Part shown: piece by piece, positions 39,334 to 56,830 of the stretch
How the letters are laid out: each line of letters begins with the position of its first letter
Position numbering within the stretch: the first letter of the stretch is position 1
Assembly: GCA_965248695.1 (NCBI GenBank)
Contig: CBDFKD010000002.1
Span: 2,816,001-2,880,000 of the forward strand
Direction of reading: 5' to 3'
Length of the DNA: 64,000 bases
Source: Acidobacteriota bacterium
Lineage (GTDB): Bacteria > Acidobacteriota > UBA890 > WLXD01
The notes under the pieces: model-generated
Seen by the model: only the letters and a program-made list of their open reading frames with translations
Databases searched by the model: none
Told to the model about the DNA's origin: nothing
Program-made: the position numbers and the translations under genes

Positions 39334-39575
39334 TGATAGTTACCCTGCTGTGTTCATCAACGCCCTCGCCCAACACCTGTGCGGCGAAGCATGGCACCGA
39401 TGAATGCGGCGATCCTCCTCGAACTGAGCACGGCCACGGAGGAATCTTGACGTCGGTCGGGAGCGTAGCGAAGATTCATCCTATCTGGCAGTGTCCTCTC
39501 TGGCAGAGTTCTGTCCCGTCGGGGGCACCTACTAGACTGCCCGCATACCCTCGCCCAACCGAATCGGAAGAAACT

Positions 39576-40595: not shown

Positions 40596-40664
40596 AGCGA
40601 TGTGGCACCGTCGGGTCAGGAACACAGCAGCTCGACGGTAGGTTCAAAACCAGACTCCAGGCGA

Positions 40665-41987: not shown

Positions 41988-42923
41988 CTAGTCGTCAGCG
42001 GGGCCTCCGAACGAAGCACTTCCGTGAGCGTACGCGTTGCAATTGTGGCGCGGCAACGCGTAGCGAGCCGACTCGGCAATCGGCGTGTCGATGTCGGCAT
42101 CTTCGACGGCGAACGCGAACGGATGTCCGGCCTCCGCCACAACCCTCTCGGAGGTCTGATCGAAGGCCTCGTGGATCCCATGCGGATAGCAGTACCCCCA
42201 ATCGAGATGGCCAACGAGCGACTTGATGAGATCGCAGGAAGCTTCGACCTCCCGCCTCTGGGCGTCCTCTTGCAGGTGGCTGAGGATGGCATGGCTGAAG
42301 CCGTGACCGCCTACTCCCATGCCTGCCTCGCAGAGATGCCGCACATCAGCATCGTCCAGGTAGAGCGTCCGCCATTCAGGCAACGTTCCCTCGAAGGCGT
42401 AGTCGAACAAGCCTCGAAGCGCCTCGCGGCGCGACTCTGAAGAGAGCTCCCAGTTGAACAGCCGCTTGATGCGCTTCGTCGGCGTGTCCGAGGGCTGTCC
42501 GACGTAGTGACCCATCCGAGCCTTGTCGATCTCCGGGAGCAGCTCTGGGTGGGCCGCGCGGACCCAGTCGAGGGCTTCGGCGCCACCCAGTCGCCCTACT
42601 GCGAGATGCAGCTTGTGGACATCGAGGAACTCGCCCGTCGTGATGGGACCAGCCGGCACATAGAAGATGCCGAAGATCTTCCTGGCCTGCAGTGCCGGCA
42701 GGACATGGGCGACGTGATCACGGAACCCATCGTCGAACGTCAGCAGCACTCCGGACGGCGCCGCACCTCCGGCAGTCCACTTCTCGAAGGAGTCCCGGTC
42801 AACGAATCCGTACACCTCGGCAAGGTAGTCGAGCTGCTGCTCGAAATGCCGTCTTGCCAAGTACGGAAAGTGCGGAAGACCTGGAGCACTAGGTCGCACG
42901 TAGTGGTACATCAGCGGCTTCAT
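41988..42923 (-). CDS. Polysaccharide deacetylase
   Basis: MYHYVR, LTFDDG, GGHGFSH and YCYPHG motifs. Confidence 0.9.
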   Translation of the reverse strand: MKPLMYHYVRPSAPGLPHFPYLARRHFEQQLDYLAEVYGFVDRDSFEKWTAGGAAPSGVLLTFDDGFRDHVAHVLPALQARKIFGIFYVPAGPITTGEFLDVHKLHLAVGRLGGAEALDWVRAAHPELLPEIDKARMGHYVGQPSDTPTKRIKRLFNWELSSESRREALRGLFDYAFEGTLPEWRTLYLDDADVRHLCEAGMGVGGHGFSHAILSHLQEDAQRREVEASCDLIKSLVGHLDWGYCYPHGIHEAFDQTSERVVAEAGHPFAFAVEDADIDTPIAESARYALPRHNCNAYAHGSASFGGPADD

Positions 42924-42984
42924 CACACACGGTCCCGTCGCATGGAGGTCTCGCCCGCCCGGGCGCCGACCGAAGATAGCCAAG

Positions 42985-45249
42985 CTACTCTACGAAGACT
43001 TCCTCTCCTGCCTCGATGGCGTCCAGGACCATGCGCGCGATCTCAGGACGCATGAACCAATCCGGAGGCGCCTCGCCGCGCTGGAACCTGCTGCGAGCCT
43101 CGCTGCCGCTGATGTGGAGTTTCTCGTTGTCGGCGTGATGGAGAGTCCCGTCTTCTTCCATGTGGGCCCCGTGTTTCCGGGAATAGAAGACCGAATCGAA
43201 CTTGACCACCTCAATTCCCAGGTCGGGAAACCTGTCGAAAATCTCGTGCGAGGCGTGCGGATCGTACGACGTCCCGGCGCCTGTATGGTCCCTACCAACG
43301 ATGAAGTGCGTGCAACCGAAGTTCTTCCTGCATATTGCCGTGAAGACCGCCTCGCGGGGCCCTGCGTAGCGCGAGAACGTCGACAGCGTGGCGAACACCA
43401 CTTTGTCCTTCGGATAGCAGTGCTGGACCATGTACTCGTAACTCTTGACGATGTACTCGTTGCGAAAATCACCGCTCCGCTTCTTACCGATTACTGGATG
43501 GACGAACAGTCCGTCGCAGTGCTCTTTCTCGAGCGCCGCAAGCTGAATGTACTCATGGCTCCGATGGATCACATTCCGCGTATGAAAACCGACGACCTTG
43601 GTCCACATCCGCTCGCTGAACAACCTCCGAACCTGCCGCGGAGTCAACTCGTACCCCCTGTGATCCGAGATACTCCTCCGGAAGAGGCTGATCCGTCCCC
43701 CGAGGAAGAACGGCTGCAGCGCTAGCGCCCATGCCACACCGGGGTGCGCGGTGTCCGTCGTTCCATAGATCTTGTCGCAGAAACGCTCCCTATCGAACAG
43801 GTAGCTGTCACTGACGTCCAGCGTCCCGACGATGCCCTCGTCGTCGGCTAAAGCGACGGTGTCGCCGGACGCGATCTGGTCTGCGGTCTCCTTGTCCACA
43901 TCCAAGACCAGTGGGACTGTCCACAGGACGCCCGAAGGAAGCCGCATGTCATCGAGCACGCCGCCGAGCTCGCTCTCGGTCATGAATCCATCCAGCGGAC
44001 TGAACGTTCCGATGGCGATTTGCTCGAGGTCCATCAGCTGGTTGGCGTTCAGCACTATCTTCTGCAGCGAGTCCAGCTGAGCGCTCCCGCCGGCGGGCTC
44101 GCCTACGAGTCGATCAACGAGGATACCCCCGTGCGGCGCCACCAACGTGGAGCCGCTGGCATCGTCGAGGAGATAACGGATGTCCCGAGGCTGCTTCGCT
44201 CCGGGTACCTGCTCGATCCCTTCGAGAATCCGCTGCGCGTCAACCGCCCGGACCTGCTCGAAGAGCTTGTTCATCATCGACACACACTCCATCGGGAATC
44301 TTCCGATCGCGGTCTCGGCGGAGAGAATGACCCCGCTCGCGCCATCGAGCAGCGTGGCAATGACGTCATGCACTTCCGCTCGGGTGGGCCTGTTCTTCGC
44401 GACCATCGTTTCCAGGAGATTGGTCGCGACGAACACGTCTTTGCCCATCCGGGCTGCACGCCCGAGGACGATCTTCTGCGCGATCGGGACCTTCTCGATC
44501 GGGATCTCTTTGCTGAGGTCACCACGATCCAGCAGGAGAGCGTCCGACGCTTCGATGATCTCATCGAGTCTTTGTAGCGCGTCGGTACACTCGATCTTGG
44601 AGATGATCCTCATTCTTGATTGCGTCGCTTGGCGTACTGCGTCAACCGATGCGCCACCACGGACGAATGACACGGCAATGTCCTCTACGTTCGCCGCCAA
44701 GCCGATCTCGATCGATTGATAGTCCTTCTCGGACAGCGGGGGAAGGGCGAGTCGCCTGTCACCAGACGCCTCGATCGCCACCGCTTTGTTGCTCCCCAAG
44801 CTCCCGGACGTCAGCGCCTTGGCGCGAATATGACCCTTGCTGCTACTGCTGGTGTCGAGAACCCTCAAGATGAGCGACTCGAAATCCACGTACAGGAGAT
44901 CTCCCTCTTCGAGCTGCTCCACGACATGACTCGGGTGCAACGAGATTCCCTGCTGATCTCCCATCACCTCCCGCGTGAGGATCCTCAGATCGTCTCCCTC
45001 CCGAAGCTCCAATGACCCTGTGCGAACGCGCCCCGAGCGCACCTGCGAGCCCTCGGTATCGATGATGAACGGAATTCCGACTTTCTTCGAGAGATCGATT
45101 GACCGTTGCAGATCGTCCAGGCTCGAATGCGACATATTGACGCGGACGAAATCCACGCCCTTGTCTTTGAGCTTCCGCAGGGCAGCCTCGGTATTCGTCG
45201 CAGGCCCGAGCGTGACGATGAGCTTTGGCTTTCTCCACATACGATTCAT
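42985..45249 (-). CDS. Pyruvate kinase-like domain fused to sulfate adenylyltransferase (Sat)
   Basis: N-terminal TLGP, RVNMSH, SFVR, ISKIE, DRGDL, PTRAE and LSAETAIG; C-terminal PHGG, FSPLDGFM, HTRNVIHRSH, YAGPREA and FIVGRDH; one uninterrupted ORF. Confidence 0.92.
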   Translation of the reverse strand: MNRMWRKPKLIVTLGPATNTEAALRKLKDKGVDFVRVNMSHSSLDDLQRSIDLSKKVGIPFIIDTEGSQVRSGRVRTGSLELREGDDLRILTREVMGDQQGISLHPSHVVEQLEEGDLLYVDFESLILRVLDTSSSSKGHIRAKALTSGSLGSNKAVAIEASGDRRLALPPLSEKDYQSIEIGLAANVEDIAVSFVRGGASVDAVRQATQSRMRIISKIECTDALQRLDEIIEASDALLLDRGDLSKEIPIEKVPIAQKIVLGRAARMGKDVFVATNLLETMVAKNRPTRAEVHDVIATLLDGASGVILSAETAIGRFPMECVSMMNKLFEQVRAVDAQRILEGIEQVPGAKQPRDIRYLLDDASGSTLVAPHGGILVDRLVGEPAGGSAQLDSLQKIVLNANQLMDLEQIAIGTFSPLDGFMTESELGGVLDDMRLPSGVLWTVPLVLDVDKETADQIASGDTVALADDEGIVGTLDVSDSYLFDRERFCDKIYGTTDTAHPGVAWALALQPFFLGGRISLFRRSISDHRGYELTPRQVRRLFSERMWTKVVGFHTRNVIHRSHEYIQLAALEKEHCDGLFVHPVIGKKRSGDFRNEYIVKSYEYMVQHCYPKDKVVFATLSTFSRYAGPREAVFTAICRKNFGCTHFIVGRDHTGAGTSYDPHASHEIFDRFPDLGIEVVKFDSVFYSRKHGAHMEEDGTLHHADNEKLHISGSEARSRFQRGEAPPDWFMRPEIARMVLDAIEAGEEVFVE

Positions 45250-45289
45250 GCTGTACGCCGTCTGGCTCTGTTTGCCGTGGGTCGGTGCC

Positions 45290-46198
45290 TCAGATTTCCA
45301 CTTCGTATTTTTCGAAGACCTGGCCCCGCAAATCCGTCGTGGCCGCGTCAATTGCCTGTGCTAGATCCGCGGCAATGTGGTGCCGCCAATCGCCAGCCAC
45401 GCCCTTGCGCATGGATTCGCCTCGATCTTCCTCACCGCGCTTTCGGGAACCGTTCTCCGCATGTCGGCGAGTCATTTGCTCGAAAGAGGCGGCGTGGACC
45501 ATCTGTTCAACGACCGCGCCCGTGGCCTCTACTTCCAGGTAGTCGAGGACGCCCCTGGTAACCTCGAGCGGACTGGTGGACATCCGTTCATAGGTGATGC
45601 AGTGCACGCTTCCAGCGTATTCCAGTAGGGCCTCGTACTCCTTGATGATCCTGCTCTCCAAGTATTCGTGGGCGAACGCCGAGGTTATCTCTCGTTCCTT
45701 TTTTCTGCCCTTCCGCAGATTGCTGAAATGCCAGGAAGTGAGCTTGTCTTTGGGGTCTCGGATACAACAGATCTTCTTGATGGAGGGATAGAACGAGTCG
45801 ATGAAGTCGAGATGAAAAGTGTACGCGGGCGACGATTCACCCACTAGCGCCTTGTCGCCGCGTTGCTCGTCGCAATAGTCGCTATAGCGGTTCACCATCA
45901 GGCGGTAGAACTCCGCCTTCGAAACCTCGTCGGCAAGCGGAATGAGGTCGGCGAACACCTTGCCGAACTTGGTCAAATAGTCAGAGAGGGGGCGTACGAA
46001 CCGGTCCGCAGTATCCGGCTCGAGGCTGGCAATCGTGTTGAAGAAGTGGACCTCACCGGCGCGGCGCTCGTGGGCAGTGACCATGAACGGCAGGCTCGGG
46101 AAACTCGCAATGTTCGGATGCTCGTTCAACGTCGCAGACGTCCACAGCGTTCCGCTACGCTCGTGTCCGACGATGAGGAAGTCGGGGCGCAATCTCAT
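45290..46198 (-). CDS. PAPS-dependent sulfotransferase
   Basis: GHERSGT 5'-PSB loop, RDPKD...S 3'-PB and RKGVAGDW. Confidence 0.88.
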   Translation of the reverse strand: MRLRPDFLIVGHERSGTLWTSATLNEHPNIASFPSLPFMVTAHERRAGEVHFFNTIASLEPDTADRFVRPLSDYLTKFGKVFADLIPLADEVSKAEFYRLMVNRYSDYCDEQRGDKALVGESSPAYTFHLDFIDSFYPSIKKICCIRDPKDKLTSWHFSNLRKGRKKEREITSAFAHEYLESRIIKEYEALLEYAGSVHCITYERMSTSPLEVTRGVLDYLEVEATGAVVEQMVHAASFEQMTRRHAENGSRKRGEEDRGESMRKGVAGDWRHHIAADLAQAIDAATTDLRGQVFEKYEVEI

Positions 46199-46403
46199 TT
46201 GACGTGCCTTATGGTTTCGGGACGTGGTCGGCGAGGCGATCCGATCGAACTGTCTGGATGAGCGCGGCCGTTCCTACTCCCAGGACAACATTGCTGGAGA
46301 GCTCTCGCGGCGCAGCAAGGCTTGCAGCGTGCACGCCCGACGAGGATCGCAAGCGGGGCGGACGACTGCAATCGGCTCGGTCCGCGCGGCTGGTGAACAG
46401 CGC

Positions 46404-47126
46404 TCAGAGGGCATCCGAGGATGCCTCTGTCGCCAGCCATTCGGCCAACCGGAGCTCGAATGGATCGTCAATGTTGACGACCGGACGCTTCACGATCACG
46501 GCGGCCGCGTCGCAATCGATGATCCGACCCTCGTCGAGCAGGTGGCGCCGGGTCACCGAGTAACAAAGACCGTTGCGGTGATAGTACTGCGGCACGCTTT
46601 GCCGCAAGCTGTGTTGCGAGCCGTCTTCACGGTAGAAGCCGATCAGCCCATCGTCAGACACAGTCAGGGTCTTGTGGGGAGTGTAGTGCGCCGGCGTGGG
46701 ACTCACCGTCGCAGCCGCCGGATGCCCTCCGTCGACCATGGTGCGCACCGTGCGCTCGACGTCCTCCGGACGACGCAGCGGACTCGTAGGCTCCAGCAAC
46801 ACGGAGATCTCGAAGGTCCGGCCCCAGTGCTTCTCCGCCTCTAGCCAGGCATGCCTCCAGGTCTCGACGGAGCCAGCGCGATCCCCGGAAAGTTCAGCAG
46901 GACGGAGGAACGGGACCTCCAGCCCGTGATCCCGACCCTCTGCGGCAATCTCTTCGTCGTCTGTCGAGAGCAGCCGCGCATCGATCCACGGCAGCGCCGC
47001 GGCCGTTCTCGCGGCCCGGGCAACCAGCGACAGACTCGCAACGGTGCACAGGTTCTTTCTTGGAATGCTCTTCGACCCGCCGCGCGCAGGTACGACGGCG
47101 AGCACCGCGAGTCCCTCCGGCGTCAC
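46404..47126 (-). CDS. neuA: Acylneuraminate (CMP-nonulosonate) cytidylyltransferase
   Basis: PARGGSKSIPRKN, STDD, PFLRP and EPTSPLR motifs. Confidence 0.88.
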   Translation of the reverse strand: MTPEGLAVLAVVPARGGSKSIPRKNLCTVASLSLVARAARTAAALPWIDARLLSTDDEEIAAEGRDHGLEVPFLRPAELSGDRAGSVETWRHAWLEAEKHWGRTFEISVLLEPTSPLRRPEDVERTVRTMVDGGHPAAATVSPTPAHYTPHKTLTVSDDGLIGFYREDGSQHSLRQSVPQYYHRNGLCYSVTRRHLLDEGRIIDCDAAAVIVKRPVVNIDDPFELRLAEWLATEASSDAL

Positions 47127-48136
47127 GGCGTGGCTGCCTCGGCGCCGAGCTCGACGACGCGCCCTTCAGCGCTGCTGGCTCGAATAGCCTCGACGATTCG
47201 CATCACTCTCGCTCCATCGTCCAACGTACACGTACTCGGCTCGGAGCCCGCGATCACGTCCAGGAACTCGCGCGCCACGGCGACGAACATGTCGTTTCGT
47301 TCGCACGTGAAGACTTCCTCCTGCCACACCTGCTTCCATTCGTGGCCGTACGCAATGCGATTCGGCTCGGCTGACCAAACGAGCGTCCCGTCCTCGCCGA
47401 GCAGACGGATGAACTTCTCGTGCGGCCGGCCATAGAGATCCAGATGCAGGGAGACTTGCAACGAGTCATAGGAGCACAGCGCATCCACGGTGTCGTCGGT
47501 GTCGATCTCGAGGTCGGACAGCTTCGCCACCCTTCCCAGAACCTCACGCGGCATGCCATGAAATCGGACCATCAAGTCAATCCAGTGACTTTCATCGAGC
47601 AAGGCGCCCCCACCCAAAGCTCGACTCGACATGAAGAACTCCTGATACGGCTCCCAGGGGTGCCAGTCCGCAAGGTGGGCCGACATGTGGAACTGAACGT
47701 GCCGTGGAGCTCCAATGACCCCGGCCGCGAGCAGGCTTCGAACGCGCTCCAGGGGCGGCCACCATCGCCAGCAGTACCCTAGAACCACGGGCGTGCCGGT
47801 GGCTTGCTGCGCCACCATCACTCGCTCGGCGTCGGACAGGGAGATTGCGACGGGCTTCTCCAGTAGCACCGGCAGCCGGTCGCGAAGCGCGGCGATCGTC
47901 TGATCGGGATGGAAGCTCGTGGGGGAGCAGATCGCGACGCCGTTCAGACCGCCGGCTCCGAGAGCCTCCTCCATCGTCTCGTGCGCGGCTTCGACCGCGA
48001 CCTCCGCGGCGAGCTCCTCTCGCCGATCTGCCCGTGGGTCGCAACACGAAATGCGACATCCCAGCGCCGAGAGGTTGCGCGCATGCCGTTGGCCCACGCT
48101 GCCGCTTCCGACGACAAGAATGTGCTGTCTCTCCAT
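47123..48136 (-). CDS. Gfo/Idh/MocA oxidoreductase
   Basis: GSGSVGQRH, EKP and GGGALLDESHWID motifs. Confidence 0.9.
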   Translation of the reverse strand: MERQHILVVGSGSVGQRHARNLSALGCRISCCDPRADRREELAAEVAVEAAHETMEEALGAGGLNGVAICSPTSFHPDQTIAALRDRLPVLLEKPVAISLSDAERVMVAQQATGTPVVLGYCWRWWPPLERVRSLLAAGVIGAPRHVQFHMSAHLADWHPWEPYQEFFMSSRALGGGALLDESHWIDLMVRFHGMPREVLGRVAKLSDLEIDTDDTVDALCSYDSLQVSLHLDLYGRPHEKFIRLLGEDGTLVWSAEPNRIAYGHEWKQVWQEEVFTCERNDMFVAVAREFLDVIAGSEPSTCTLDDGARVMRIVEAIRASSAEGRVVELGAEAATP

Positions 48137-48151
48137 CTGCGTTTCTGCCCG

Positions 48152-49696
48152 TTACCTGATACCTGCGACCATGCTCTCGTAGGCGTCCGAGTCGAACGGT
48201 ACCTCGATGAAACCCGGGCCCGACTCCGGGTTCCAAGCCGAGAGTGCTGATTCAACGGCACCCTGTGTCTCTGCCCTTGTCCCGGGAACCCCGAACGCGT
48301 CGAAACCGGCCACCCACGACCGTCCATCCATGACGAGCGGCGATTGTGTCAGCCCATCCCGTAGCGCACGGGTGCGTATCGATCCGAAGGCATTGTCAGT
48401 CATGAGGAGGACCAGAAGGGGTAGTCGATGACGGACGGCGATTTTCAACTCCGAAGGGTACATTCCGACGCTGCCATCGCCGAGCACTACGACGGTGGGT
48501 ACGGTGGAGTCGTGTAGTGCGGCACCGATAGCCATGGGCAACCCGGTTCCCATATAGCGAGCCTGTCCCGACATGAGGCACCAATCTGCCCGGCGGGCGG
48601 GCCAAGCATGCTCCCCGACGGTGCAGAAATACCCCGTGTCCATGACGAGCCTGACGGTTCCCAAGAAGCGTCGGTCCAGGGCCGCGAATACGCTTCCGGG
48701 CAAGAACCCCTGGCTCAGATGGGCATCAAGGTCGGCCAGTGCGCTGCGTAGGCGAGCGCCTCCCCATGCCTTGCCCTGGAGAGCGCCTGCGAGCTCCTCG
48801 AACGCCGAAGCGGGAAGACGAGCCGCGAACGCAAAGCCCTCGACGCCGGGAGTTGCAATGACCTCCACGTTGATCGCCGGACTGGCGAACGGCCGTACAG
48901 CAAGCAGTTCGCGCGCCGTCAGCCCGAGCCCGACCACCACATCGGCCTCGGGCAAGAGACTCGCCTCTGGAGTGAGCTCGAGCCCGCTCCCGGTGTAAAC
49001 GCCTGCCGCGTGTGCGAGCGTCTCGTCCACCAAGCCCTTGGCTGCGGCGGTGGAGAACACCGGGACCTCAAGTCGCGAGAGCTCCCCGCCCCAGTTCTGA
49101 CGGATCGCCAGGCTACCCGCGATGATCGCTGGCTTCCGCGAGCGGCGCACGAGATCGAGGCCCGTTCGGAGGTCGCCTGCCGGTCCCACTCCTGCTGCGA
49201 TTGGCGGCGCTATCGGTGCAGCGCCGTCGGCAAGTTCCAGCAGCACCGGGGCTGGCTCCTCCCGCTCCGCCAAGCTCGCCATCTCGTCGAAGCCCGTCCC
49301 TTCCGGCGTCAGCGAACCCACCGCCTTCGTCACTGCCGAGCACAGCGCTCGATGGTCCAAGCGCTTGTGGGCAACCCACGGCGGCGCTTCTGGAGCGACG
49401 GCCTCGGCGAGGTGCACTAGCGGGAACGATTCGAACCACGCGGCAGCCATTCCTGGCAGGGTGTTGGTAAGGCCAGGCCCCTTGATCGACAGAGAGACTC
49501 CGGCGCGACCGCTGAGCCGGCCGACGGTGGCGGCCATGAGCGCGCCACTGCCCTCGAAGTGCGTGAGGTGAAAGGGAACACCTCGCGCCTCCAGGGCGTC
49601 TATCAACGACAATGTCGCGCCGCTCCCCGGGATTCCGAAGACCTCGCGCACGCCTCGCGCGGTGATGTCATCGGCAAGCTGCTCGAACCGACTCAA
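48152..49696 (-). CDS. Thiamine-diphosphate-dependent enzyme (acetolactate synthase/decarboxylase family)
   Basis: VFGIPG, HFE, GPGLTN and GDGS...DN; TTG start overlaps the upstream TGA. Confidence 0.88.
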   Translation of the reverse strand: MSRFEQLADDITARGVREVFGIPGSGATLSLIDALEARGVPFHLTHFEGSGALMAATVGRLSGRAGVSLSIKGPGLTNTLPGMAAAWFESFPLVHLAEAVAPEAPPWVAHKRLDHRALCSAVTKAVGSLTPEGTGFDEMASLAEREEPAPVLLELADGAAPIAPPIAAGVGPAGDLRTGLDLVRRSRKPAIIAGSLAIRQNWGGELSRLEVPVFSTAAAKGLVDETLAHAAGVYTGSGLELTPEASLLPEADVVVGLGLTARELLAVRPFASPAINVEVIATPGVEGFAFAARLPASAFEELAGALQGKAWGGARLRSALADLDAHLSQGFLPGSVFAALDRRFLGTVRLVMDTGYFCTVGEHAWPARRADWCLMSGQARYMGTGLPMAIGAALHDSTVPTVVVLGDGSVGMYPSELKIAVRHRLPLLVLLMTDNAFGSIRTRALRDGLTQSPLVMDGRSWVAGFDAFGVPGTRAETQGAVESALSAWNPESGPGFIEVPFDSDAYESMVAGIR

Positions 49697-50655
49697 GCAG
49701 AGCCCTCGAGCGCATCCTTGATCTTGGCCGCCGCAACACGGCAAACGACCCGCACGGCGTCGGGACTGAAACCACCGCAATGGGGCGTGATCAAGAGGTT
49801 GTCATGCGAGCTTGCATAGGCCACCAGGGGATCGTCCCCGACGTCGGGCTCGGCCGCCAGGACATCGAGCCCCGCGGCAGCGATATGCCCCGAATTCAGA
49901 CCCCTCAGCAGAGCCGCTTCATCGAGGATCTGACCTCTCGAGGTATTGACAATGACGATACCGGGCCGCGCACGGGCCAGGAGATCTGCCGACACGAGCC
50001 CTTCGGTCTGCTCGGTCAGATGAACGTGGATGGAGACGAAGTCGGCGCGCTCGAACACTGCTTCCAGAGCCACCGGTTCGATGGTCTCGGGGAAATGCTC
50101 GACGAAGGGATCGTGTCCGATGACCTCCATGTCGAAAGCACGCCCATATCGGGCCATCCACGTCCCGATCCGTCCACACCCCACGAGCCCGAGGCACCTG
50201 CCCTTGAGCATTCGCCCGGGGAATTCCTCCCGATCCCAGCGACGCTCTCGGACGTGCCTGACCGCCCCGACCAAGTTGCGTGCACAGGCCATCAACAGGG
50301 CCCAGGAGAGCTCAGCCGCGGGGGTCAGCTCTTGGAGCACGTCCGGGTTGTCCCTGAGCGTCCGCACGACGATCCCGCGCTCGTCCGCCACGCTCTGAGA
50401 AATGTGATCCGAACCCGTTGTCGCGCACGAGATAATGCGCAGGCGGGATGCAGCTGACAGCATCGAATCGCTGATACGGACCTTCATGGATGCGTCGAGA
50501 AACCCCTCGGCGAGAACCAGGGCAGCAGCGACTGCGGCGGGTTCCGCCGCGATGTGCTGGACGTTGGCCACCGGCGTCAGCACCTCGGCCGCGGCCTCGT
50601 AGCCCTCGGTCGCACCGACGTACGCGACCATACGCTCGTCAGTATCGGAACCCAT
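49693..50655 (-). CDS. D-isomer-specific 2-hydroxyacid dehydrogenase (SerA-like)
   Basis: GCGRIG, NTSRG, LDV...EP and TPHCGG motifs. Confidence 0.9.
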   Translation of the reverse strand: MGSDTDERMVAYVGATEGYEAAAEVLTPVANVQHIAAEPAAVAAALVLAEGFLDASMKVRISDSMLSAASRLRIISCATTGSDHISQSVADERGIVVRTLRDNPDVLQELTPAAELSWALLMACARNLVGAVRHVRERRWDREEFPGRMLKGRCLGLVGCGRIGTWMARYGRAFDMEVIGHDPFVEHFPETIEPVALEAVFERADFVSIHVHLTEQTEGLVSADLLARARPGIVIVNTSRGQILDEAALLRGLNSGHIAAAGLDVLAAEPDVGDDPLVAYASSHDNLLITPHCGGFSPDAVRVVCRVAAAKIKDALEGSA

Positions 50656-51482
50656 TAGCCAACCGGCTCAGGCCAGGCCAACGCTCGCTCACCGAGGCAG
50701 TACTGGAGCGTGGCTCGATTCGCCTCGCCAAGCGGTGCCTCCTGGAGCTCGAAGACGGTCACGTCTGCTGGCCCTGCCGGTTCAAACTTCCAGTTCCGGT
50801 AGAGGTGGGCGGCGAGGAAGCGACTCGTGGCGGTGCGCCCGTCGACGATGACGAGCGCTCCGGGCAAGAGCAACGGCTCGATGCGCGCCACGTCGGCGGA
50901 CATCACAACGTAGTCTGGGCAATCCCACGAGACGTTGGCGACATCGCCGTCCACAGCTGCCGGGTCGGGGCCGTCCAGATAGATCAGATCGGGCAGGACG
51001 GCCGGCAGTCGGTCGTAGTAGTGACAGACGCGCCCTTGGAAGGTTCCCGCTGTCGCACCTGAGTGGTGCATCGTGACGAAATCACCAAGGCGTGAGGGAA
51101 GCATCTCCTTCGTGCGCTCGATCCAAGTCTTCGACGTGTCGACAGCGTGCAATTCGAAAGGGGTGGAGTTGCGGAGAACCGGCGGGCTGGACAGACGATC
51201 CCAGTCGCTACGATTCTTCAACAGTGCATCAGCCATCACCACGGTCGAATAACCGAGGCCGAACTCCAGAATCGTAAGGACCCGCCGCTGACGGACCACG
51301 GCGTGCAAGCGTGCGAGATCCGGATAGCTGGGCCGAATACGTTTCGCGTCGCCCTCGCGACCCTCCAGCACCTCCAGGAGACCTTCTCCGCGTAGGTACT
51401 CGAGCGCCCCAGCCTCTCCGTCGGCTGAAAACAACGCGGCGACCTCGCGAGGCCCCAATCCAACCTCACTCACTTGCGTCAA
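50655..51482 (-). CDS. Methyltransferase-fold hypothetical protein
   Basis: ILEFGLGYST, LHAVD, IYLDGP and IVDGR. Confidence 0.65.
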   Translation of the reverse strand: MTQVSEVGLGPREVAALFSADGEAGALEYLRGEGLLEVLEGREGDAKRIRPSYPDLARLHAVVRQRRVLTILEFGLGYSTVVMADALLKNRSDWDRLSSPPVLRNSTPFELHAVDTSKTWIERTKEMLPSRLGDFVTMHHSGATAGTFQGRVCHYYDRLPAVLPDLIYLDGPDPAAVDGDVANVSWDCPDYVVMSADVARIEPLLLPGALVIVDGRTATSRFLAAHLYRNWKFEPAGPADVTVFELQEAPLGEANRATLQYCLGERALAWPEPVG

Positions 51483-52680
51483 CGGCGGCGATGGGAGATC
51501 CGGAGGAGCTCTCCGCGTCGAGGTACGTCAACGTCTTGCCGACCCTCAGTGGCGCCGAAGCTATGACCTCGGCGATGCGCGCGCCGGCGGCGCCGTCACC
51601 GAACATCAACGAGCGCTCGTGGCGACCGTGCGCCATCTGGTGCTCGATCGCCGCGCCGATCGCATCTGCTTCGTGCGGAACATCCATGACGTTCTCGGCT
51701 CGTTCGCGGCCGTGTTGTCGACTGCCGATATTCACGCATGGGGTACCGAGGAAAGCTCCCTCACGAAGCCCTGAGGAGGAGTTGCCGACGACGCACACGG
51801 CGCTGCGCAGGAGCCGAGCGTAGTCTTCCGCCGAAAAGTGACGGTATAGCCTCAGGTAGTCGGGCTGGTGCTTCTCACGAAACACGCGCAACCCCTTCGA
51901 GATGTCGTCGGATCCGGCATCGACGTTGGGCCACAGCCAGACGACCTGGGTGCCCTGTCGCCCGATCCGACCCACCGCCTCGAGCGTCTGGGCGACCTGG
52001 TCCAGCCCCTGGCCGTACTCCGTGGTCACGGGATGCTGAAGAACGATCATGTACGGCTTGGTCGAATCGAGCTCCGCCCCGACGCCGCCGGGCCGCTCGA
52101 AGATATCCGCCGGCAGAGTAAGGTCGTTGTCGACAAGAAGGTCGAGAGAGGGACATCCGGTGAGGTGCACGGTGTCGGGATCCTCTCCGAGGCGAAGGAG
52201 GAAATCCCGAGCACGTTGGGTAGCGGGGAAGTGCAGGTGCGACAGCTTGGTGACAGCGTGACGCACGCTCTCATCGATCGAACCAGTTACCTCGCCGCCC
52301 TGAGTGTGGGCAACGGGAATGTTCATGTAGCTCGCCGCAATGGCGGTGGCAATCGTCTCGAACCGATCCGCAACGGTGAGCACGACGTCCGGTCGCAGGT
52401 TGTCGAAGTGGGTCGCCAGCTCGACGATTCCCAGGCCGGTTGATTTCGCCATTGTCGTCGGCGTCTCGCCTTCGACGATCGTGTGCACGACCCTGTCCGG
52501 TTCGAACCCGTCTTCCCTGATCAGGTCGACGACTCGGCCGAAGCGATACAACAACGCCGAGGCGCCGACAATGAGCTGTAGCTCGAGGTCCGAGCGAGCC
52601 TGGGCGGCCTCGAGGAAGCTCTTGATCCGAGCATAGTTCGCGCGGCTGTTGACGATCGCGCAGACCTTACGTGTCGGCAT
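51466..52680 (-). CDS. neuC: UDP-N-acetylglucosamine 2-epimerase (hydrolysing)
   Basis: SRANY, ADRFE, HTQGGE, DESVRHAVTKLSHLHF and GNSSSG motifs. Confidence 0.9.
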   Translation of the reverse strand: MPTRKVCAIVNSRANYARIKSFLEAAQARSDLELQLIVGASALLYRFGRVVDLIREDGFEPDRVVHTIVEGETPTTMAKSTGLGIVELATHFDNLRPDVVLTVADRFETIATAIAASYMNIPVAHTQGGEVTGSIDESVRHAVTKLSHLHFPATQRARDFLLRLGEDPDTVHLTGCPSLDLLVDNDLTLPADIFERPGGVGAELDSTKPYMIVLQHPVTTEYGQGLDQVAQTLEAVGRIGRQGTQVVWLWPNVDAGSDDISKGLRVFREKHQPDYLRLYRHFSAEDYARLLRSAVCVVGNSSSGLREGAFLGTPCVNIGSRQHGRERAENVMDVPHEADAIGAAIEHQMAHGRHERSLMFGDGAAGARIAEVIASAPLRVGKTLTYLDAESSSGSPIAAVDASE

Positions 52681-53707
52681 CCAGGTCCTCCCAGCGAAGC
52701 AACCTTGCGGGCTCCACGTCCCGCGCCAGGCGTCGGCCAATCAGGTCGTCGAGGGCGTCGGCAGAGATGCCGGTCGCCGGTTTCTTGAACGCGAGCATCT
52801 CGCGAGTCAATCGCGTGCCGGCGGCAAGCGGCCTCGCGGGCGCCACACTCTTACCGAACATCTCACGTGTTTCTGTGAGCAATTCTGCAATCTCATCCTT
52901 GTCCACCGGACGAGTGTCCATCTCGTGGAACGCATCTCGGGCACGCACAAGCTGTGCCAGCTCGTCGAAGGTGAGCGAGGCGGTGACATCCGGACCGAAC
53001 ATCGCTCGATCGAAAGTCACATGAACTTCGATCATCCGCGCCCCGCGAGCCAGTGCTGCAAGCGCAGGATACGGGGTACCGGAATGGTCAGAAAGCCCTA
53101 CCGGGCAACCGTACCGTGCGCTCATGTCCGCGAGCGCGTTGAGGCCTACGGCATCAAGCGGCGTCGGATACTGACTGGTGCACTGGAGCAGCAGGAACTC
53201 GGCGTCGCGCTGGCGCAGAAAAGCGACCACGCTATCGATGTCCGCCCAGCTGCTCATCCCGGTGCTGACCAGGATCGGGCCTCCTGCGACGAGCATGTCC
53301 TCGATCAAATCGCGACCGCGCACTTCCCCGGAGCCGACCTTCCAGGCAGGCACCCCGAGATCACGGAGCAGCTGCACCGCCTCCCGTGAGAAGGGCGAGC
53401 TGAGAAAATGCAGGCCGCGCCGGCGCGCGTGATCCGCCAGCTGTGCCCATTGCTCCGTCGAGAACTCCATGCGCTGCCAATAATCGTAGCGGCTGGCGTC
53501 CTGGGTACTGAAGCGCACCCGGAACGGCTCATCCAGCGTCGACTCGGCGGCCGCGATATGCGTCTGAAATTTGACCGCATCGGCGCCAGCATCGGCCACA
53601 GCGTCGACAAACGCGTGCGCTGTGCCCAGCGACCCGTCATGCGCCTGCGCCACTTCGGCGACAAGGATCGGCTTGCCCGAGGAGATGTCGAACGAAGGAT
53701 CTGTCAT
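52667..53707 (-). CDS. neuB: N-acetylneuraminate/nonulosonate synthase
   Basis: VAEVAQAHDGS, KFQTH, KVGSGE, STGMS, GLSDHS and a C-terminal SAF domain. Confidence 0.92.
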   Translation of the reverse strand: MTDPSFDISSGKPILVAEVAQAHDGSLGTAHAFVDAVADAGADAVKFQTHIAAAESTLDEPFRVRFSTQDASRYDYWQRMEFSTEQWAQLADHARRRGLHFLSSPFSREAVQLLRDLGVPAWKVGSGEVRGRDLIEDMLVAGGPILVSTGMSSWADIDSVVAFLRQRDAEFLLLQCTSQYPTPLDAVGLNALADMSARYGCPVGLSDHSGTPYPALAALARGARMIEVHVTFDRAMFGPDVTASLTFDELAQLVRARDAFHEMDTRPVDKDEIAELLTETREMFGKSVAPARPLAAGTRLTREMLAFKKPATGISADALDDLIGRRLARDVEPARLLRWEDLDADT

Positions 53708-55614: not shown

Positions 55615-55690
55615 CTGCGGACGCCTGACAACCGTGCCACGGCGAACACCCGGCCGAAGCAAGGCACCCCGGGGCCGGCAACCGATTCGG

Positions 55691-56830
55691 TCACGCCACG
55701 CCACGGGATACGAGGTTGAGAAACATTTTCTCGTACTCGGCGCAGATCCTCTCGATTCCGAAGCGGTCGCGGACACGCGCCTCGATGAGCGCCGCATCGA
55801 GGGCGTCTGTCGCATCCAGCGCGTCCAGGATAGTCCGTGCCAGACCGCCGGGATCGTCGGGCGGCGCCAACCATCCGTTGCTCCCCTCCTCGACGATCTC
55901 CGTACCGCCGCCAGGGCAGTCGGTTGCCACCACAGGGATTCCCAGACCCAACGACTCGAGCATCGAGTTCGATAGCCCCTCGTATCGAGAAGACGACACG
56001 AACAGGTCGGCCGCACGAATCGCCGGGAACGGATTCTCGCAGAATCCCGGTAGATGAACCGACCCCACGAGACCCTCGGCGTCTATCTGCGCTTCTAGAT
56101 CGGCTCGGTCCTCGCCTTCGCCGAGGACCGTCAACGTCGCCTCGACCCGTTCTCTACGAACCGCGGCAAAGGCCTCCAAGAGCACATCGTACCCCTTCTG
56201 CCAACTCAGGCGTCCGACGGAAACAAGGTGCGGCCCAGTACCTCCGCGACCGATAAACTCGGCGCTCGACAGCGGCTCAGATGCCGCCGCCTTGATGCGG
56301 TCGATGTCCACCGGGTTGTAGATGCGCACAAAACGTTTCCGAGACGCCGGGAGACGTCCCACGGCGTCCTGAATCATGAAGTCGCTCTGGGCGACGACCC
56401 GATCGGCCCCCAGCACCATGAGGGTCGAAGCTAGCGTCTGGGCCCACCGAGCCCATGGCGCGCGCCGACCCGCTTCGTCGAGGAAAGCACCAATGGTGTT
56501 GCCGAGCCGAGTTATGACCCGGGTTCCCGATGGGTAACGAGGACGAGCGAGCACTGAGGCGACTGCCAAGCCGAGCGTGGCCATGACCACGTCTGGCCTC
56601 CAATCTCGAACGACTCGTGCGAGAGGAAGAACACAGCGCCGCGCTCGTTTGGCACCGAGCTCGAAGATACGGACGTCCTGTGGAACGTCCCGCACGAACA
56701 CCCCCTCGCGGAGACCGACCGCCAGGGCCACCTTGAACCGGTTTCGATCGAGACCACGGGCCAAGTGGACAATGACTCTCTCGGCCCCCCCGCCCTGGAG
56801 ATTGGGCACAACGAACAGAACCCGAATCAC
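55691..56830 (-). CDS. Glycosyltransferase family 4
   Basis: GGGAERV and SRYEGLSNSMLES motifs. Confidence 0.92.
   Translation of the reverse strand: MIRVLFVVPNLQGGGAERVIVHLARGLDRNRFKVALAVGLREGVFVRDVPQDVRIFELGAKRARRCVLPLARVVRDWRPDVVMATLGLAVASVLARPRYPSGTRVITRLGNTIGAFLDEAGRRAPWARWAQTLASTLMVLGADRVVAQSDFMIQDAVGRLPASRKRFVRIYNPVDIDRIKAAASEPLSSAEFIGRGGTGPHLVSVGRLSWQKGYDVLLEAFAAVRRERVEATLTVLGEGEDRADLEAQIDAEGLVGSVHLPGFCENPFPAIRAADLFVSSSRYEGLSNSMLESLGLGIPVVATDCPGGGTEIVEEGSNGWLAPPDDPGGLARTILDALDATDALDAALIEARVRDRFGIERICAEYEKMFLNLVSRGVA

What the first reader, a model, noticed from the sequence alone, without database searches (positions are those of the whole stretch)
41988..53707. Candidate sulfonate/sulfate-decorated nonulosonic acid pathway
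Seen: a co-directional run with several overlapping start/stop codons: neuB, neuC, MTase-like, 2-hydroxyacid dehydrogenase, ThDP enzyme, Gfo/Idh/MocA, neuA, sulfotransferase, PK-Sat, deacetylase. Known: phosphonate glycan loci use PEP mutase, then a ThDP phosphonopyruvate decarboxylase and dehydrogenases; coenzyme M synthesis uses sulfolactate dehydrogenase and a ThDP sulfopyruvate decarboxylase. Inference: this could be the sulfur analogue (PEP to sulfopyruvate, then sulfolactate or sulfoacetaldehyde-derived groups on the glycan). A simpler reading is O-sulfation via PAPS, although no APS kinase is visible in the window.
Basis: inference. Interest (0 to 1): 0.75.

Follow-up and report, generated by a model that had tools for sequence, protein, structure and literature searches.

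The report
Sulfated sialic-acid-like sugar operon
This is a horizontally acquired surface-sugar operon that joins a little-known sialic-acid-type pathway to an ordinary sulfate-ester module built round an apparently undescribed pyruvate kinase–ATP sulfurylase fusion, not a carbon-sulfur (sulfonate) pathway.

Summary
All ten genes are at the stated coordinates on the minus strand, with the stated domains.

The sulfonate reading fails its own test.
- The ThDP enzyme sat with the 2-hydroxyacid dehydrogenase in 72 of 80 metagenome loci, with Gfo in 63 and neuA in 47. It sat with PK-Sat in 0 of 80.
- None of 80 PK-Sat loci held the ThDP gene.
- The ThDP gene is acetolactate-synthase-like. The sulfopyruvate and phosphonopyruvate decarboxylase models do not hit it.
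- The genome has no ComA and no PEP mutase match.

PK-Sat is a PAPS-supply module.
- APS kinase is fused or adjacent in most of the 56 of 80 loci that have one.
- 46 of 80 loci hold a sulfotransferase, and CysQ-like phosphatases recur.
- The window's sulfotransferase shows PAPS-type motifs.
- cysC lies 1.6 Mb away.

So the region combines two recurrent modules. One is a neuB-neuC-dehydrogenase-ThDP-Gfo-neuA cassette of unknown chemistry. The other is a sulfotransferase plus PK-Sat pair set between neuA and a deacetylase. Sulfotransferases and nonulosonate genes co-occur repeatedly across phyla. This points to sulfated nonulosonate glycans, which my paper searches did not find described in prokaryotes.

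The parts
56835..57761 (-). SAM-dependent methyltransferase (Methyltransf_23 type). It is the first gene of the same-strand run.
   Evidence: Pfam Methyltransf_23 at 92 bits. Methyltransferases of this type recur inside related cassettes: 16 of 98 extra ORFs, and 7 of 7 ORFs of about 305 aa that I scanned singly.
55691..56830 (-). GT4 glycosyltransferase.
   Evidence: Glyco_trans_1_4 at 118.6 bits and Glycos_transf_1 at 107.8 bits.
53797..55815 (-). Fused membrane-plus-ATPase ABC exporter, a candidate flippase or exporter of the glycan. The ORF is open to 56016; the likely start is ATG 55815.
   Evidence: ABC_tran at 100.6 bits and ABC_membrane at 40.5 bits. Homologues of 39-45% identity lie beside nonulosonate genes in L008, L046, L058, L064, L067 and L070.
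52667..53707 (-). neuB, nonulosonate synthase (an aldose plus PEP).
   Evidence: Pfam NeuB 218.8 bits plus SAF. TIGR03569 scores 284 bits, below its cut-off of 399.65. The nearest solved structure is N. meningitidis NeuB/SiaC at 1.6e-48, ahead of pseudaminic acid synthase at 1.3e-36.
51466..52680 (-). neuC, hydrolysing UDP-GlcNAc 2-epimerase.
   Evidence: TIGR03568 scores 370.4 bits against a cut-off of 235.9. ATG 52680 overlaps the neuB stop by 14 nt.
50655..51482 (-). Methyltransferase-like protein, weakly assigned.
   Evidence: Methyltransf_24 scores 24.1 bits, below its cut-off of 26.3. There is no NCBIfam hit. Homologues occur in 8 of 80 ThDP loci.
49693..50655 (-). D-isomer 2-hydroxyacid dehydrogenase, phosphoglycerate-dehydrogenase-like. 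It is the constant partner of the ThDP enzyme.
   Evidence: 2-Hacid_dh_C scores 167.8 bits. TIGR01327 scores 194.5 bits, below its cut-off of 454. The nearest solved structures are phosphoglycerate dehydrogenases at 4.6e-42. It lies directly upstream of the ThDP gene in 72 of 80 loci.
48152..49696 (-). Acetolactate-synthase-like ThDP enzyme, 514 aa, substrate unknown.
   Evidence: TPP_enzyme_N, M and C are all present. The nearest solved structures are catabolic acetolactate synthases at 2.4e-30. It belongs to a tight family of 48-65% identity, with 120 clusters listed. The Ppd and ComD models do not hit it.
47123..48136 (-). Gfo/Idh/MocA oxidoreductase, paired with neuA.
   Evidence: GFO_IDH_MocA scores 59.2 bits, plus C-terminal domains. 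It lies directly downstream of the ThDP gene in 63 of 80 loci. Its stop overlaps the neuA start by 4 nt. A precedent is ElaA beside ElaB in PMC13656337 (passages).
46404..47126 (-). neuA, CMP-nonulosonate synthetase.
   Evidence: CTP_transf_3 scores 35.2 bits. The nearest solved structures are CMP-Neu5Ac synthetases at 9.5e-21.
45290..46198 (-). PAPS-type sulfotransferase.
   Evidence: Sulfotransfer_1 scores 91.2 bits and Sulfotransfer_3 63.8 bits. The translation shows GHERSGTLW, IRDPKDKLTS and RKGVAGDW. Orthologues of 47-52% identity lie just upstream of PK-Sat in L005, L008, L017 and L067.
42985..45249 (-). Fusion of a pyruvate kinase barrel (no C-terminal regulatory domain) with ATP sulfurylase.
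   Evidence: PK 245 bits, PUA_2 148 bits, ATP-sulfurylase 255 bits. NF003166 scores 411.7 bits against a cut-off of 387. PK catalytic motifs align with solved PKs. All 120 listed database hits carry the same three domains.
41988..42983 (-). NodB-type polysaccharide deacetylase, the last gene of the run.
   Evidence: Polysacc_deac_1 scores 49 bits. Homologues occur in 14 of 80 ThDP loci and 6 of 80 PK-Sat loci, often right after neuA or after the sulfotransferase.

Best explanation
The region is a horizontally acquired surface-glycan operon built from two recurrent, separable modules.

Module 1 is a sialic-acid-type CMP-nonulosonate cassette: neuB, neuC, a methyltransferase-like gene, a phosphoglycerate-dehydrogenase-like 2-hydroxyacid dehydrogenase, an acetolactate-synthase-like ThDP enzyme, a Gfo/Idh/MocA oxidoreductase and neuA, followed by a deacetylase.
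- Inferred from family membership: NeuC gives ManNAc, NeuB adds PEP, NeuA makes the CMP-sugar.
- Inferred, low confidence (about 0.2-0.25 for the details): the Gfo enzyme, like ElaA beside ElaB, oxidises a side-chain hydroxyl of the (CMP-)nonulosonate to a ketone. The ThDP enzyme does carbon-carbon chemistry at that carbonyl. The dehydrogenase makes or reduces the 2-oxo-acid partner.

Module 2 is a sulfation unit set between neuA and the deacetylase: a PAPS-type sulfotransferase plus PK-Sat.
- The Sat domain makes APS.
- The genome's distant CysC makes PAPS.
- Inferred: the PK domain uses PEP to turn the ADP left by CysC back into ATP. This feeds both steps and removes an inhibitory product.
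- The sulfotransferase puts a sulfate ester (or a sulfamate, after de-N-acetylation) on the nonulosonate or on the glycan that carries it.

Sulfur therefore enters as sulfate through PAPS, not as a carbon-bound sulfonate.
For: Modularity
- ThDP loci from metagenomes (the query itself is matched in all 80): dehydrogenase 72, Gfo 63, neuA 47, neuC 36, neuB 26, deacetylase 14, PK-Sat 0, window-type sulfotransferase 0.
- PK-Sat loci from species genomes: neuA 21, neuB 17, neuC 15, Gfo 11, window-type sulfotransferase 5, dehydrogenase 5, ThDP 0 of 80.

PAPS role of PK-Sat
- All 120 listed database hits carry PK, PUA_2 and ATP-sulfurylase. Many forms of about 925 aa add APS_kinase.
- APS kinase is found in 56 of 80 loci. 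In most it starts 6-40 nt after the end of the PK-Sat match, in a few it is kilobases away.
- Among 140 nearest-neighbour ORFs, 21 match Sulfotransfer_1, 20 match Sulfotransfer_3 and 8 match Inositol_P, which is CysQ-like.
- A sulfotransferase-like ORF occurs in 46 of 80 PK-Sat loci, and in 32 of the 42 that are at least 18 kb long.
- The PK domain keeps the RxNxSH, DT.G..R, KIE, RGDL, AT..LE.M and S.ET motifs aligned with solved PKs.
- The Sat domain passes NF003166 and TIGR00339.
- The window's sulfotransferase shows PAPS-type loops.
- The genome has cysC beside a second sat.

Link between sulfation and nonulosonate genes
- 20 of the 42 long PK-Sat loci hold at least one nonulosonate gene, and 15 hold at least two.
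- 17 of 80 ThDP loci, and 11 of the 18 long ones, hold a sulfotransferase-like ORF. By my own comparison of the coordinates, it often sits directly after neuA, as in the window.
- L008, L017 and L067 are labelled Saccharibacteria and Gammaproteobacteria and have 31-46% GC. They carry neuC, neuA, a sulfotransferase of 47-52% identity, PK-Sat (with CysC fused in L017 and L067) and a deacetylase. L017 and L067 also carry neuB and a methyltransferase, and L008 and L067 an ABC exporter. L067 adds a CysQ-like gene.

Horizontal origin
- No full-length PK-Sat was found in 30 relatives. Matches cover either residues 5-330 or residues 364-745.
- The ThDP gene was found in 0 of 4 same-genus genomes and in 1 of 400 genomes of the phylum, at 32% identity.
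- There is no close neuB in the relatives.

Gfo precedent
- In PMC13656337, ElaA (Gfo family), beside the CMP-synthetase ElaB, is proposed to make CMP-8-keto-Leg (passages).
Against: - No chemistry is available. Neither the sulfate acceptor nor the product of the dehydrogenase-ThDP-Gfo trio is shown.
- cysC is not in the cluster, unlike most relatives, so PAPS supply rests on a gene 1.6 Mb away.
- The PK domain's role as an ATP regenerator is inferred from conserved motifs and domain partners only.
- In about half of the long PK-Sat loci (22 of 42) no nonulosonate gene was detected within 10 kb. PK-Sat therefore serves sulfation in general, not nonulosonates alone.
- D-2-hydroxyacid dehydrogenases normally need a carboxylate next to the carbonyl, so this enzyme's place in a side-chain scheme is unclear.
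- The window's Gfo is only distantly like the fold relative named for ElaA (3ezy, 6.7e-14).
- Gene labels in the loci come from tblastn at E below 1e-8 and from crude ORF calls.
- Several loci look like near-duplicates by their identical gene maps and scores (L091/L092, L141/L142, L128/L129, L126/L127), so the counts are not independent.
- The taxon labels of MAG records may be wrong.
- GC3 is uniform across the run, so composition gives no sign of a recent insertion.
Confidence: 0.7

Rival explanations
1. The dehydrogenase and the ThDP enzyme are sulfolactate dehydrogenase and sulfopyruvate decarboxylase analogues. Fed by PK-Sat, they put a carbon-bound sulfonate group on the nonulosonate.
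For: - The chemistry is plausible by analogy with coenzyme M and phosphonate pathways (recalled).
- Sulfoacetaldehyde acetyltransferase models give weak hits to the ThDP enzyme, at 69-71 bits against cut-offs of 620 and 676.
- Sulfur-activating genes lie in the same operon.
Against: - ThDP and PK-Sat co-occur in 0 of 80 loci in both directions.
- The ThDP enzyme is a three-domain acetolactate-synthase type, best matched by acetolactate synthase models and structures.
- TIGR03297 and TIGR03845 hit two other genomic loci but not this gene at E up to 0.01.
- The dehydrogenase is in the 2-Hacid_dh family. That ComC belongs to the Ldh_2 family is recalled.
- No ComA and no PEP mutase match was found in the genome.
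- PK-Sat's partners are APS kinase, sulfotransferases and CysQ-like phosphatases.
Confidence: 0.03
2. The sulfotransferase sulfates a different residue of the same glycan, or the finished polymer, and not the nonulosonate. The gene proximity reflects only a shared product.
For: - 22 of the 42 long PK-Sat loci show no nonulosonate gene within 10 kb, so the module is generic.
- The window also encodes GT1 and GT4 transferases and an ABC exporter, so there are other sugars to sulfate.
- Bacterial polysaccharide sulfotransferases that act on polymers are known (recalled: Mesorhizobium KpsS).
Against: - Orthologues of the window's sulfotransferase at 47-52% identity lie in operons with neuC and neuA in 3 of 4 loci (L008, L017, L067, but not L005).
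- In ThDP loci the sulfotransferase often directly follows neuA (my comparison of the coordinates).
- 11 of the 18 long ThDP loci hold a sulfotransferase.
Confidence: 0.3
3. The dehydrogenase, ThDP and Gfo genes make a separate, non-nonulosonate building block or substituent of the glycan. An example would be a glycerate- or acetoin-type group, or a branched hexose. They would not modify the nonulosonate itself.
For: - More distant dehydrogenase-ThDP pairs (about 42% identity; L155, L158, L160, L162, L164, L165) lie beside GT4 genes, without Gfo or neuA on the fetched stretch.
- Some long loci (L126, L141) hold the trio with no neuB or neuC detected within 10 kb.
Against: - In the closer family the genes are embedded between neuC and neuA: dehydrogenase in 72, Gfo in 63 and neuA in 47 of 80 loci.
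- In the window they have 1-4 nt overlaps.
- No nucleotidyltransferase or other sugar-activating gene accompanies them in the cassette.
Confidence: 0.2
4. PK-Sat is a housekeeping sulfate-assimilation enzyme that merely happens to lie in the glycan locus.
For: The Sat domain passes the assimilatory sulfate adenylyltransferase models.
Against: - The genome has a separate sat-cysC pair.
- None of 30 relatives has the fusion.
- Its relatives sit with sulfotransferases in 46 of 80 loci.
Confidence: 0.04

Closest known systems
Bifunctional PAPS synthases (Sat fused to APS kinase; NCBIfam NF004040; human PAPSS1/2, recalled)
   Same: The ATP sulfurylase domain passes curated models. In relatives APS kinase is fused or adjacent. 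The output feeds sulfotransferases.
   Different: There is an N-terminal pyruvate kinase barrel without the PK C-terminal domain. The window copy has no fused or adjacent APS kinase. Two paper searches found no description of a natural PK-Sat fusion.
ElaA/ElaB/ElaC 8-epi-legionaminic acid module of Acinetobacter baumannii KL49 (PMC13656337; passages read)
   Same: A Gfo/Idh/MocA oxidoreductase is encoded beside the CMP-nonulosonate synthetase. It is proposed to oxidise a side-chain hydroxyl (C8) of the CMP-sugar.
   Different: The window has no SDR reductase partner; a ThDP enzyme and a 2-hydroxyacid dehydrogenase stand there instead. The base sugar here looks Neu5Ac-type, not legionaminic. 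The window's Gfo has only family-level likeness.
Shewanella oneidensis sfmABCDE flagellin-modification cluster (PMC3765264; one passage read)
   Same: A NeuB-domain protein is encoded next to an IlvB-like ThDP-binding enzyme and a methyltransferase, in a nonulosonate-related modification locus.
   Different: That ThDP protein has 581 aa and is partnered by an oxoacyl-ACP reductase. No 2-hydroxyacid dehydrogenase, Gfo or neuC/neuA synteny was reported in the passage I read. Its chemistry is also unknown.
YerE-type ThDP carboligases of branched-chain sugar synthesis (recalled, not tested here)
   Same: These are acetolactate-synthase-fold ThDP enzymes that add a pyruvate-derived two-carbon unit to a keto-sugar. 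This is the model for what a ThDP enzyme could do after a Gfo oxidation.
   Different: I made no sequence comparison because no reference sequence was at hand. YerE acts on a CDP-4-keto-hexose, not on a nonulosonate.
Coenzyme M ComC/ComDE and phosphonopyruvate decarboxylase routes
   Same: A ThDP decarboxylase plus a hydroxyacid dehydrogenase, in a pathway that starts from PEP.
   Different: The protein families differ: the window's ThDP gene is not hit by the Ppd or ComD models, and its dehydrogenase is a 2-Hacid_dh, whereas ComC is recalled to be an Ldh_2 protein. No ComA or PEP mutase match was found. There is no co-occurrence with PK-Sat.
Eukaryotic sialic acid sulfation (PMC9304399; search listing and start of abstract only)
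   Same: A sulfate ester on a sialic acid, donated by PAPS.
   Different: It is known in vertebrates and echinoderms. I did not compare the enzymes. My searches found no prokaryotic sulfated nonulosonate. PMC10483923 (passages) reports both sialylated and sulfated polymers in sludge EPS; the terms 'sulfated nonulosonic' and 'sulfated sialic' each occur 0 times in its text.

Membership tests
Sulfopyruvate decarboxylase (ComDE) / phosphonopyruvate decarboxylase | A match to TIGR03845 (ComD) or TIGR03297 (Ppd). | tested here: not met
   Both models hit other loci of the genome (C2:1997656-1998659 and C2:5466036-5467081). They do not hit the window's ThDP gene (C2:2864155-2865780) at E up to 0.01.
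Sulfopyruvate decarboxylase (ComDE) / phosphonopyruvate decarboxylase | A short two-domain or split architecture without the central TPP_enzyme_M domain (recalled). | tested here: not met
   The window protein has the N, M and C domains in one chain of 514-542 aa.
Coenzyme M / phosphonate-type entry step | A ComA (phosphosulfolactate synthase) or a PEP mutase in the genome. | tested here: not met
   PF02679 gave 0 matches and TIGR02320 gave 0 matches in the 96.4%-complete genome.
Acetolactate synthase / pyruvate oxidase-like ThDP enzymes | Three TPP_enzyme domains, the cofactor-activating Glu, and the GDG...N ThDP-Mg motif. | tested here: met
   All three Pfam domains exceed their cut-offs. 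E48 and G406-D407-G408 are invariant in 13 family members. The roles of these motifs are recalled.
Acetolactate synthase proper (AlsS / IlvB equivalogs) | A score above an NCBIfam equivalog cut-off. | tested here: not met
   The best is NF006187 at 156.7 bits against 509, then AlsS NF006378 at 130.6 against 510.
D-3-phosphoglycerate dehydrogenase (SerA) | TIGR01327 above its cut-off. | tested here: not met
   194.5 bits against 454. The protein is a member of the D-2-hydroxyacid dehydrogenase superfamily only.
PAPS-dependent sulfotransferase (Sulfotransfer_1) | A Pfam match, plus 5'-phosphosulfate and 3'-phosphate binding loops. | tested here: met
   PF00685 scores 91.2 bits against a cut-off of 22. 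GHERSGTLW, IRDPKDKLTS and RKGVAGDW are seen in the translation. The motif definitions are recalled, and I did no structure-based check.
ATP sulfurylase (Sat) | Curated sulfate adenylyltransferase models above their cut-offs. | tested here: met
   NF003166 scores 411.7 against 387, and TIGR00339 scores 342.6 against 322.95.
Pyruvate kinase | The barrel domain with catalytic and K+/Mg2+/nucleotide residues. | tested here: met
   PF00224 scores 245 bits. Motifs align with solved PKs and are invariant in 12 fusion proteins. Residue roles are recalled.
Pyruvate kinase | The full-length enzyme with the C-terminal regulatory domain (TIGR01064 above its cut-off). | tested here: not met
   286.1 bits against 306.4. 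The match covers model positions 1-337 of 476. The PUA_2 and Sat domains follow instead.
Neu5Ac-type nonulosonate pathway (NeuC/NeuB/NeuA) | NeuC, NeuB and NeuA equivalog scores. | tested here: inconclusive
   NeuC passes (370.4 against 235.9). NeuB does not (284 against 399.65). NeuA passes Pfam only. The nearest solved structures are Neu5Ac-type. No dehydratase or aminotransferase of the Leg/Pse routes lies in the run.
ElaA-like CMP-nonulosonate dehydrogenase | A Gfo/Idh/MocA enzyme adjacent to the CMP-synthetase and acting on the CMP-sugar. | tested here: inconclusive
   Adjacency is met, with a 4-nt overlap and Gfo then neuA in 47 of 80 loci. I had no ElaA sequence, and the activity is not testable here.

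The most novel reading that the evidence does not exclude
Many uncultivated bacteria and archaea, and this genome by transfer, may make sulfated sialic-acid-like sugars. None was described for prokaryotes in the papers I searched. The sulfate may be an N-sulfate, added after the conserved deacetylase removes the N-acetyl group, as in heparan N-deacetylase/N-sulfotransferase logic.

PAPS would come from a self-contained, PEP-driven synthase (PK-Sat-CysC) that recycles its own ADP.

In this genome the sugar skeleton would be remodelled further by a conserved dehydrogenase-ThDP-Gfo trio, for example to a carbon-branched or side-chain-recut nonulosonate. That would be a new class of nonulosonic acid.
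Probability: 0.3. Interest if true: 0.8.

Novelty: new variant of a known kind. Interest (0 to 1): 0.58.

Why it matters
Nonulosonic acids and sulfate esters are the two main anionic signatures of animal cell surfaces. Finding both encoded in one operon, repeatedly and across records labelled as CPR bacteria, DPANN archaea, Chloroflexi and others, gives three leads.

- **A genetic handle for sulfated polymers.** It offers candidate genes for the sulfated and sialylated polymers seen chemically in sludge EPS. PMC10483923 states that sulfotransferase hits were few and the pathways poorly known (passages).
- **An unstudied enzyme architecture.** PK fused to Sat, often with CysC, may relieve the energetic and product-inhibition problems of PAPS synthesis. 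It could be useful for enzymatic PAPS regeneration.
- **An unassigned three-enzyme branch.** A conserved branch of a sialic-acid-type pathway has no known product.

It also removes a tempting but unsupported idea, that sulfonated nonulosonates are made by a coenzyme-M-like route.

Tried and rejected
- **C-sulfonate route.** Rejected on co-occurrence, family membership and the lack of ComA or PEP mutase matches.
- **PK domain as an APS 3'-kinase that replaces CysC.** I considered this and set it aside. Relatives keep a fused or adjacent APS kinase as well, and the PK nucleotide and PEP motifs are ordinary.
- **Composition as evidence of a recent insertion of the sulfur module.** Overall GC is lower (0.58-0.60 against about 0.64), but GC3 is uniform at 0.74-0.77. 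It gives no support.
- **RNA elements or promoters in the 205-nt neuA-sulfotransferase gap.** Rfam at E up to 0.1 gave only a sub-threshold snoRNA-like match inside the ThDP gene. The promoter and terminator scan was at or below shuffle expectation.
- **Papers.**
  - (pyruvate kinase with ATP sulfurylase or sulfate adenylyltransferase, plus fusion or fused) showed only coupled assays or unrelated mentions. The one candidate, PMC10839748, does not mention the fusion (passages).
  - (nonulosonic acid or neuB/neuC with thiamine, acetolactate synthase or 2-hydroxyacid dehydrogenase) gave only the Shewanella sfm cluster. PMC4758666 and PMC8397731 were irrelevant.
  - One search found nothing relevant. 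One search was noise, because the word start 'neub' matched other words.
  - Supplementary files were not consulted. They may hold gene tables that bear on these claims.
- **Finer function of the ThDP enzyme and the dehydrogenase from active-site residues.** Not attempted, because I had no reference sequences of YerE, CEAS, ElaA or SerA that could be typed or fetched.
- **Tools I chose not to use.** No structure prediction, complex prediction or read mapping was run. I judged that they would not discriminate between the readings.

Full report
**Observation**

- Pfam and NCBIfam confirm every domain call: NeuB plus SAF; NeuC (TIGR03568, 370.4 bits against a cut-off of 235.9); a weak methyltransferase-like protein (24.1 bits, below its cut-off); a D-2-hydroxyacid dehydrogenase; a three-domain ThDP enzyme; a Gfo/Idh/MocA oxidoreductase; a cytidylyltransferase; a Sulfotransfer_1 protein; a PK barrel, PUA_2 and ATP-sulfurylase fusion; and a NodB-type deacetylase.
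- Start-codon inspection shows tight coupling inside the cassette: neuB/neuC overlap 14 nt, methyltransferase-like/dehydrogenase 1 nt, dehydrogenase/ThDP 4 nt and Gfo/neuA 4 nt.
- There is a 205-nt gap before the sulfotransferase and a 40-nt gap before PK-Sat.
- The database forms of the ThDP enzyme (514 aa) and of PK-Sat (754 aa) fix their starts at 49696 and 45249.
- The same-strand run continues upstream through an ABC exporter, a GT4 and a methyltransferase to 57761.
- No APS kinase is in the window. The genome's only PF01583 match lies beside a second sat, 1.6 Mb away.

**The ThDP enzyme and the dehydrogenase belong to a nonulosonate cassette, not to the sulfur genes**

The ThDP protein is a member of a tight family of about 514 aa. 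120 clusters at 48-65% identity are listed, mostly unnamed or called acetolactate synthase.

I fetched 80 metagenome loci of this family. tblastn with the window's proteins at E below 1e-8 gave these counts of 80:

| Gene | Loci |
|---|---|
| Dehydrogenase | 72 |
| Gfo | 63 |
| neuA | 47 |
| neuC | 36 |
| neuB | 26 |
| Deacetylase | 14 |
| Methyltransferase-like | 8 |
| PK-Sat | 0 |
| Window-type sulfotransferase | 0 |

- Many contigs are short, so the lower counts for neuB and neuC are minima.
- The order neuB, neuC, (methyltransferase), dehydrogenase, ThDP, Gfo, neuA, (deacetylase) repeats locus after locus.
- Several loci look like near-duplicates by their identical maps and scores (L091/L092, L141/L142, L128/L129, L126/L127), so the counts are not independent.
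- The gene is rare near the window's organism. It was found in 0 of 4 same-genus genomes and in 1 of 400 genomes of the phylum, at 32% identity.

**PK-Sat is a PAPS-supply module**

- All 120 listed database hits to PK-Sat carry PK, PUA_2 and ATP-sulfurylase. Many forms of about 925 aa add an APS kinase domain.
- A scan of species genomes found 182 confirmed relatives. The 80 kept come from records labelled as more than a dozen phyla of bacteria and archaea.
- 56 of those 80 loci hold an APS kinase. In most it starts 6-40 nt after the end of the PK-Sat match; in a few it is kilobases away.
- Among 140 nearest-neighbour ORFs the commonest Pfam families are Sulfotransfer_1 (21), Sulfotransfer_3 (20) and Inositol_P (8). 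The last is the family of CysQ PAP phosphatases.
- An iterated sulfotransferase profile finds at least one hit in 46 of 80 loci, and in 32 of the 42 loci of at least 18 kb. All but one of these hits have E of 2.4e-30 or lower.
- The ThDP gene is in 0 of these 80 loci, and the dehydrogenase is in 5.
- The PK domain keeps the catalytic and ligand motifs of solved pyruvate kinases (residue roles recalled).
- The Sat domain passes two curated models.
- The window's sulfotransferase shows loops of the PAPS-binding type (motif definitions recalled).

The simplest reading is therefore as follows. Sat makes APS and CysC makes PAPS. The PK domain uses PEP to rephosphorylate the ADP that CysC leaves. 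The last step is inference; it also fits the recalled dead-end ADP-APS inhibition of APS kinases.

**The sulfonate idea fails on family membership too**

- The ThDP enzyme's best models and structures are acetolactate synthases.
- The phosphonopyruvate and sulfopyruvate decarboxylase models hit two other, split gene pairs in the genome but not this gene.
- No ComA and no PEP mutase match was found.
- The dehydrogenase is a 2-Hacid_dh protein, nearest to phosphoglycerate dehydrogenases. It is well below the SerA cut-off.

**Sulfation and nonulosonate genes are nevertheless linked**

- Of the 42 long PK-Sat loci, 20 hold at least one nonulosonate gene and 15 hold at least two.
- Of the ThDP loci, 17 of 80 hold a sulfotransferase-like ORF of another subfamily, as do 11 of the 18 long ones. 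By my own comparison of the coordinates, it often directly follows neuA, and in several loci a deacetylase comes next. This is the position it has in the window.
- The window-type sulfotransferase (47-52% identity) lies just upstream of PK-Sat in L005, L008, L017 and L067. Three of these (all but L005) carry neuC, neuA and a deacetylase. L017 and L067 also carry neuB and a methyltransferase, L008 and L067 an ABC exporter, and L067 a CysQ-like gene. Their GC is 31-46% and their taxon labels are far from the window's organism.
- In L008 and L067 a Capsule_synth-family protein lies next to the exporter. That family is recalled to include ulosonic-acid transferases.

The window therefore looks like the ThDP-type cassette with the sulfotransferase and PK-Sat pair set between neuA and the deacetylase.

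**Origin**

- None of 30 relatives has a full-length PK-Sat. Their matches cover only the PK part or only the Sat part.
- None of them has a close neuB.
- IS copies and a Mutator transposase lie upstream in the window.
- GC3 is uniform across the run, so any transfer is not recent or came from a donor of similar composition.

**What the dehydrogenase-ThDP-Gfo trio does is not known**

- NeuB and NeuA are nearest to Neu5Ac-type enzymes, and no Leg/Pse dehydratase or aminotransferase is present. The base sugar is therefore probably made from ManNAc.
- The Gfo-neuA pair has a published parallel. ElaA (Gfo family), beside the CMP-synthetase ElaB, is proposed to oxidise C8 of CMP-legionaminic acid (PMC13656337, passages).
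- A NeuB-domain gene beside an IlvB-like ThDP enzyme is also known from the Shewanella sfm flagellin-modification cluster, whose chemistry is unsolved (PMC3765264, passage).
- My best guess, at about 0.2-0.25 for the details, is this. Gfo makes a keto-nonulosonate. The ThDP enzyme adds to or cuts at that carbonyl. The dehydrogenase handles the 2-oxo acid partner.
- Against this guess, more distant dehydrogenase-ThDP pairs occur beside GT4 genes without Gfo or neuA.
- Cassette variants carry further tailoring genes. Of 98 extra ORFs, 16 are methyltransferases, 11 are sulfotransferases and 4 are B12-radical-SAM enzymes.

**Verdict**

- The sulfonate interpretation is not supported. The PAPS sulfation reading is.
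- The locus is a new variant of known kinds (nonulosonate synthesis plus PAPS sulfation), but it brings out two conserved modules that my searches did not find described.
- The strongest open claim is that the sulfate goes on the nonulosonate itself. That needs mass spectrometry.

Noticed in passing
window 19654-20682 (+) and 30570-31598 (-): Two 342-aa integrase-core (rve) transposase ORFs give identical Pfam scores, so they are probably identical IS copies. They lie in inverted orientation and bracket about 10 kb that holds a Mutator-family transposase (24506-25711) and a MacB/FtsX-type permease (27222-29330).
   Followed up: no
window 31948-34002 and 34175-36208 (-): Two paralogous proteins of about 680 aa have a C-terminal Sulfatase-family domain and about 250 N-terminal residues with no match. 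They could be LtaS- or phosphoethanolamine-transferase-like enzymes, or true sulfatases. A homologue (25-29% identity) lies beside nonulosonate genes in L046.
   Followed up: partly
window 62895-64000 (-), which runs off the window end: An ORF with no Pfam family is 26% identical (E 2e-41) to the 460-aa ORF that follows the ThDP gene in L145. Family-less ORFs of similar size (about 460 aa) follow the cassette in L103, L150 and L162, but I did not compare them with the window. It may be the glycan's transferase or polymerase.
   Followed up: partly
window 59353-62172 (+): A carbamoyltransferase (NodU/CmcH-type N and C domains) is fused to a class I methyltransferase. Homologues lie in L158 (43% identity, near a dehydrogenase-ThDP pair) and in L028 (28%).
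   Followed up: no
own genome C2:1997656-1998659 and C2:5466036-5467081: Two split ThDP decarboxylase pairs match the sulfopyruvate and phosphonopyruvate decarboxylase models below their cut-offs. The second pair has a TGA inside one match. They are far from the window and unrelated to its ThDP gene.
   Followed up: no
own genome C2:974922-975866: A second, distant NeuB-like gene (26% identity to the window's neuB). The genome may therefore encode another ulosonic acid pathway.
   Followed up: no
window 39333-40595 and 40602-41924 (+): An APH-family kinase-like protein and a 440-aa protein with no family lie convergent to the deacetylase, between the two minus-strand glycan blocks. The kinase-like gene is not an APS kinase.
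   Followed up: no
L128:4255-5637, with similar ORFs in L123, L129, L138 and L143: B12-binding radical SAM enzymes of about 460-475 aa sit between neuB and neuC in some ThDP-type cassettes. This hints at methylation on carbon, or other radical tailoring, of the nonulosonate.
   Followed up: partly
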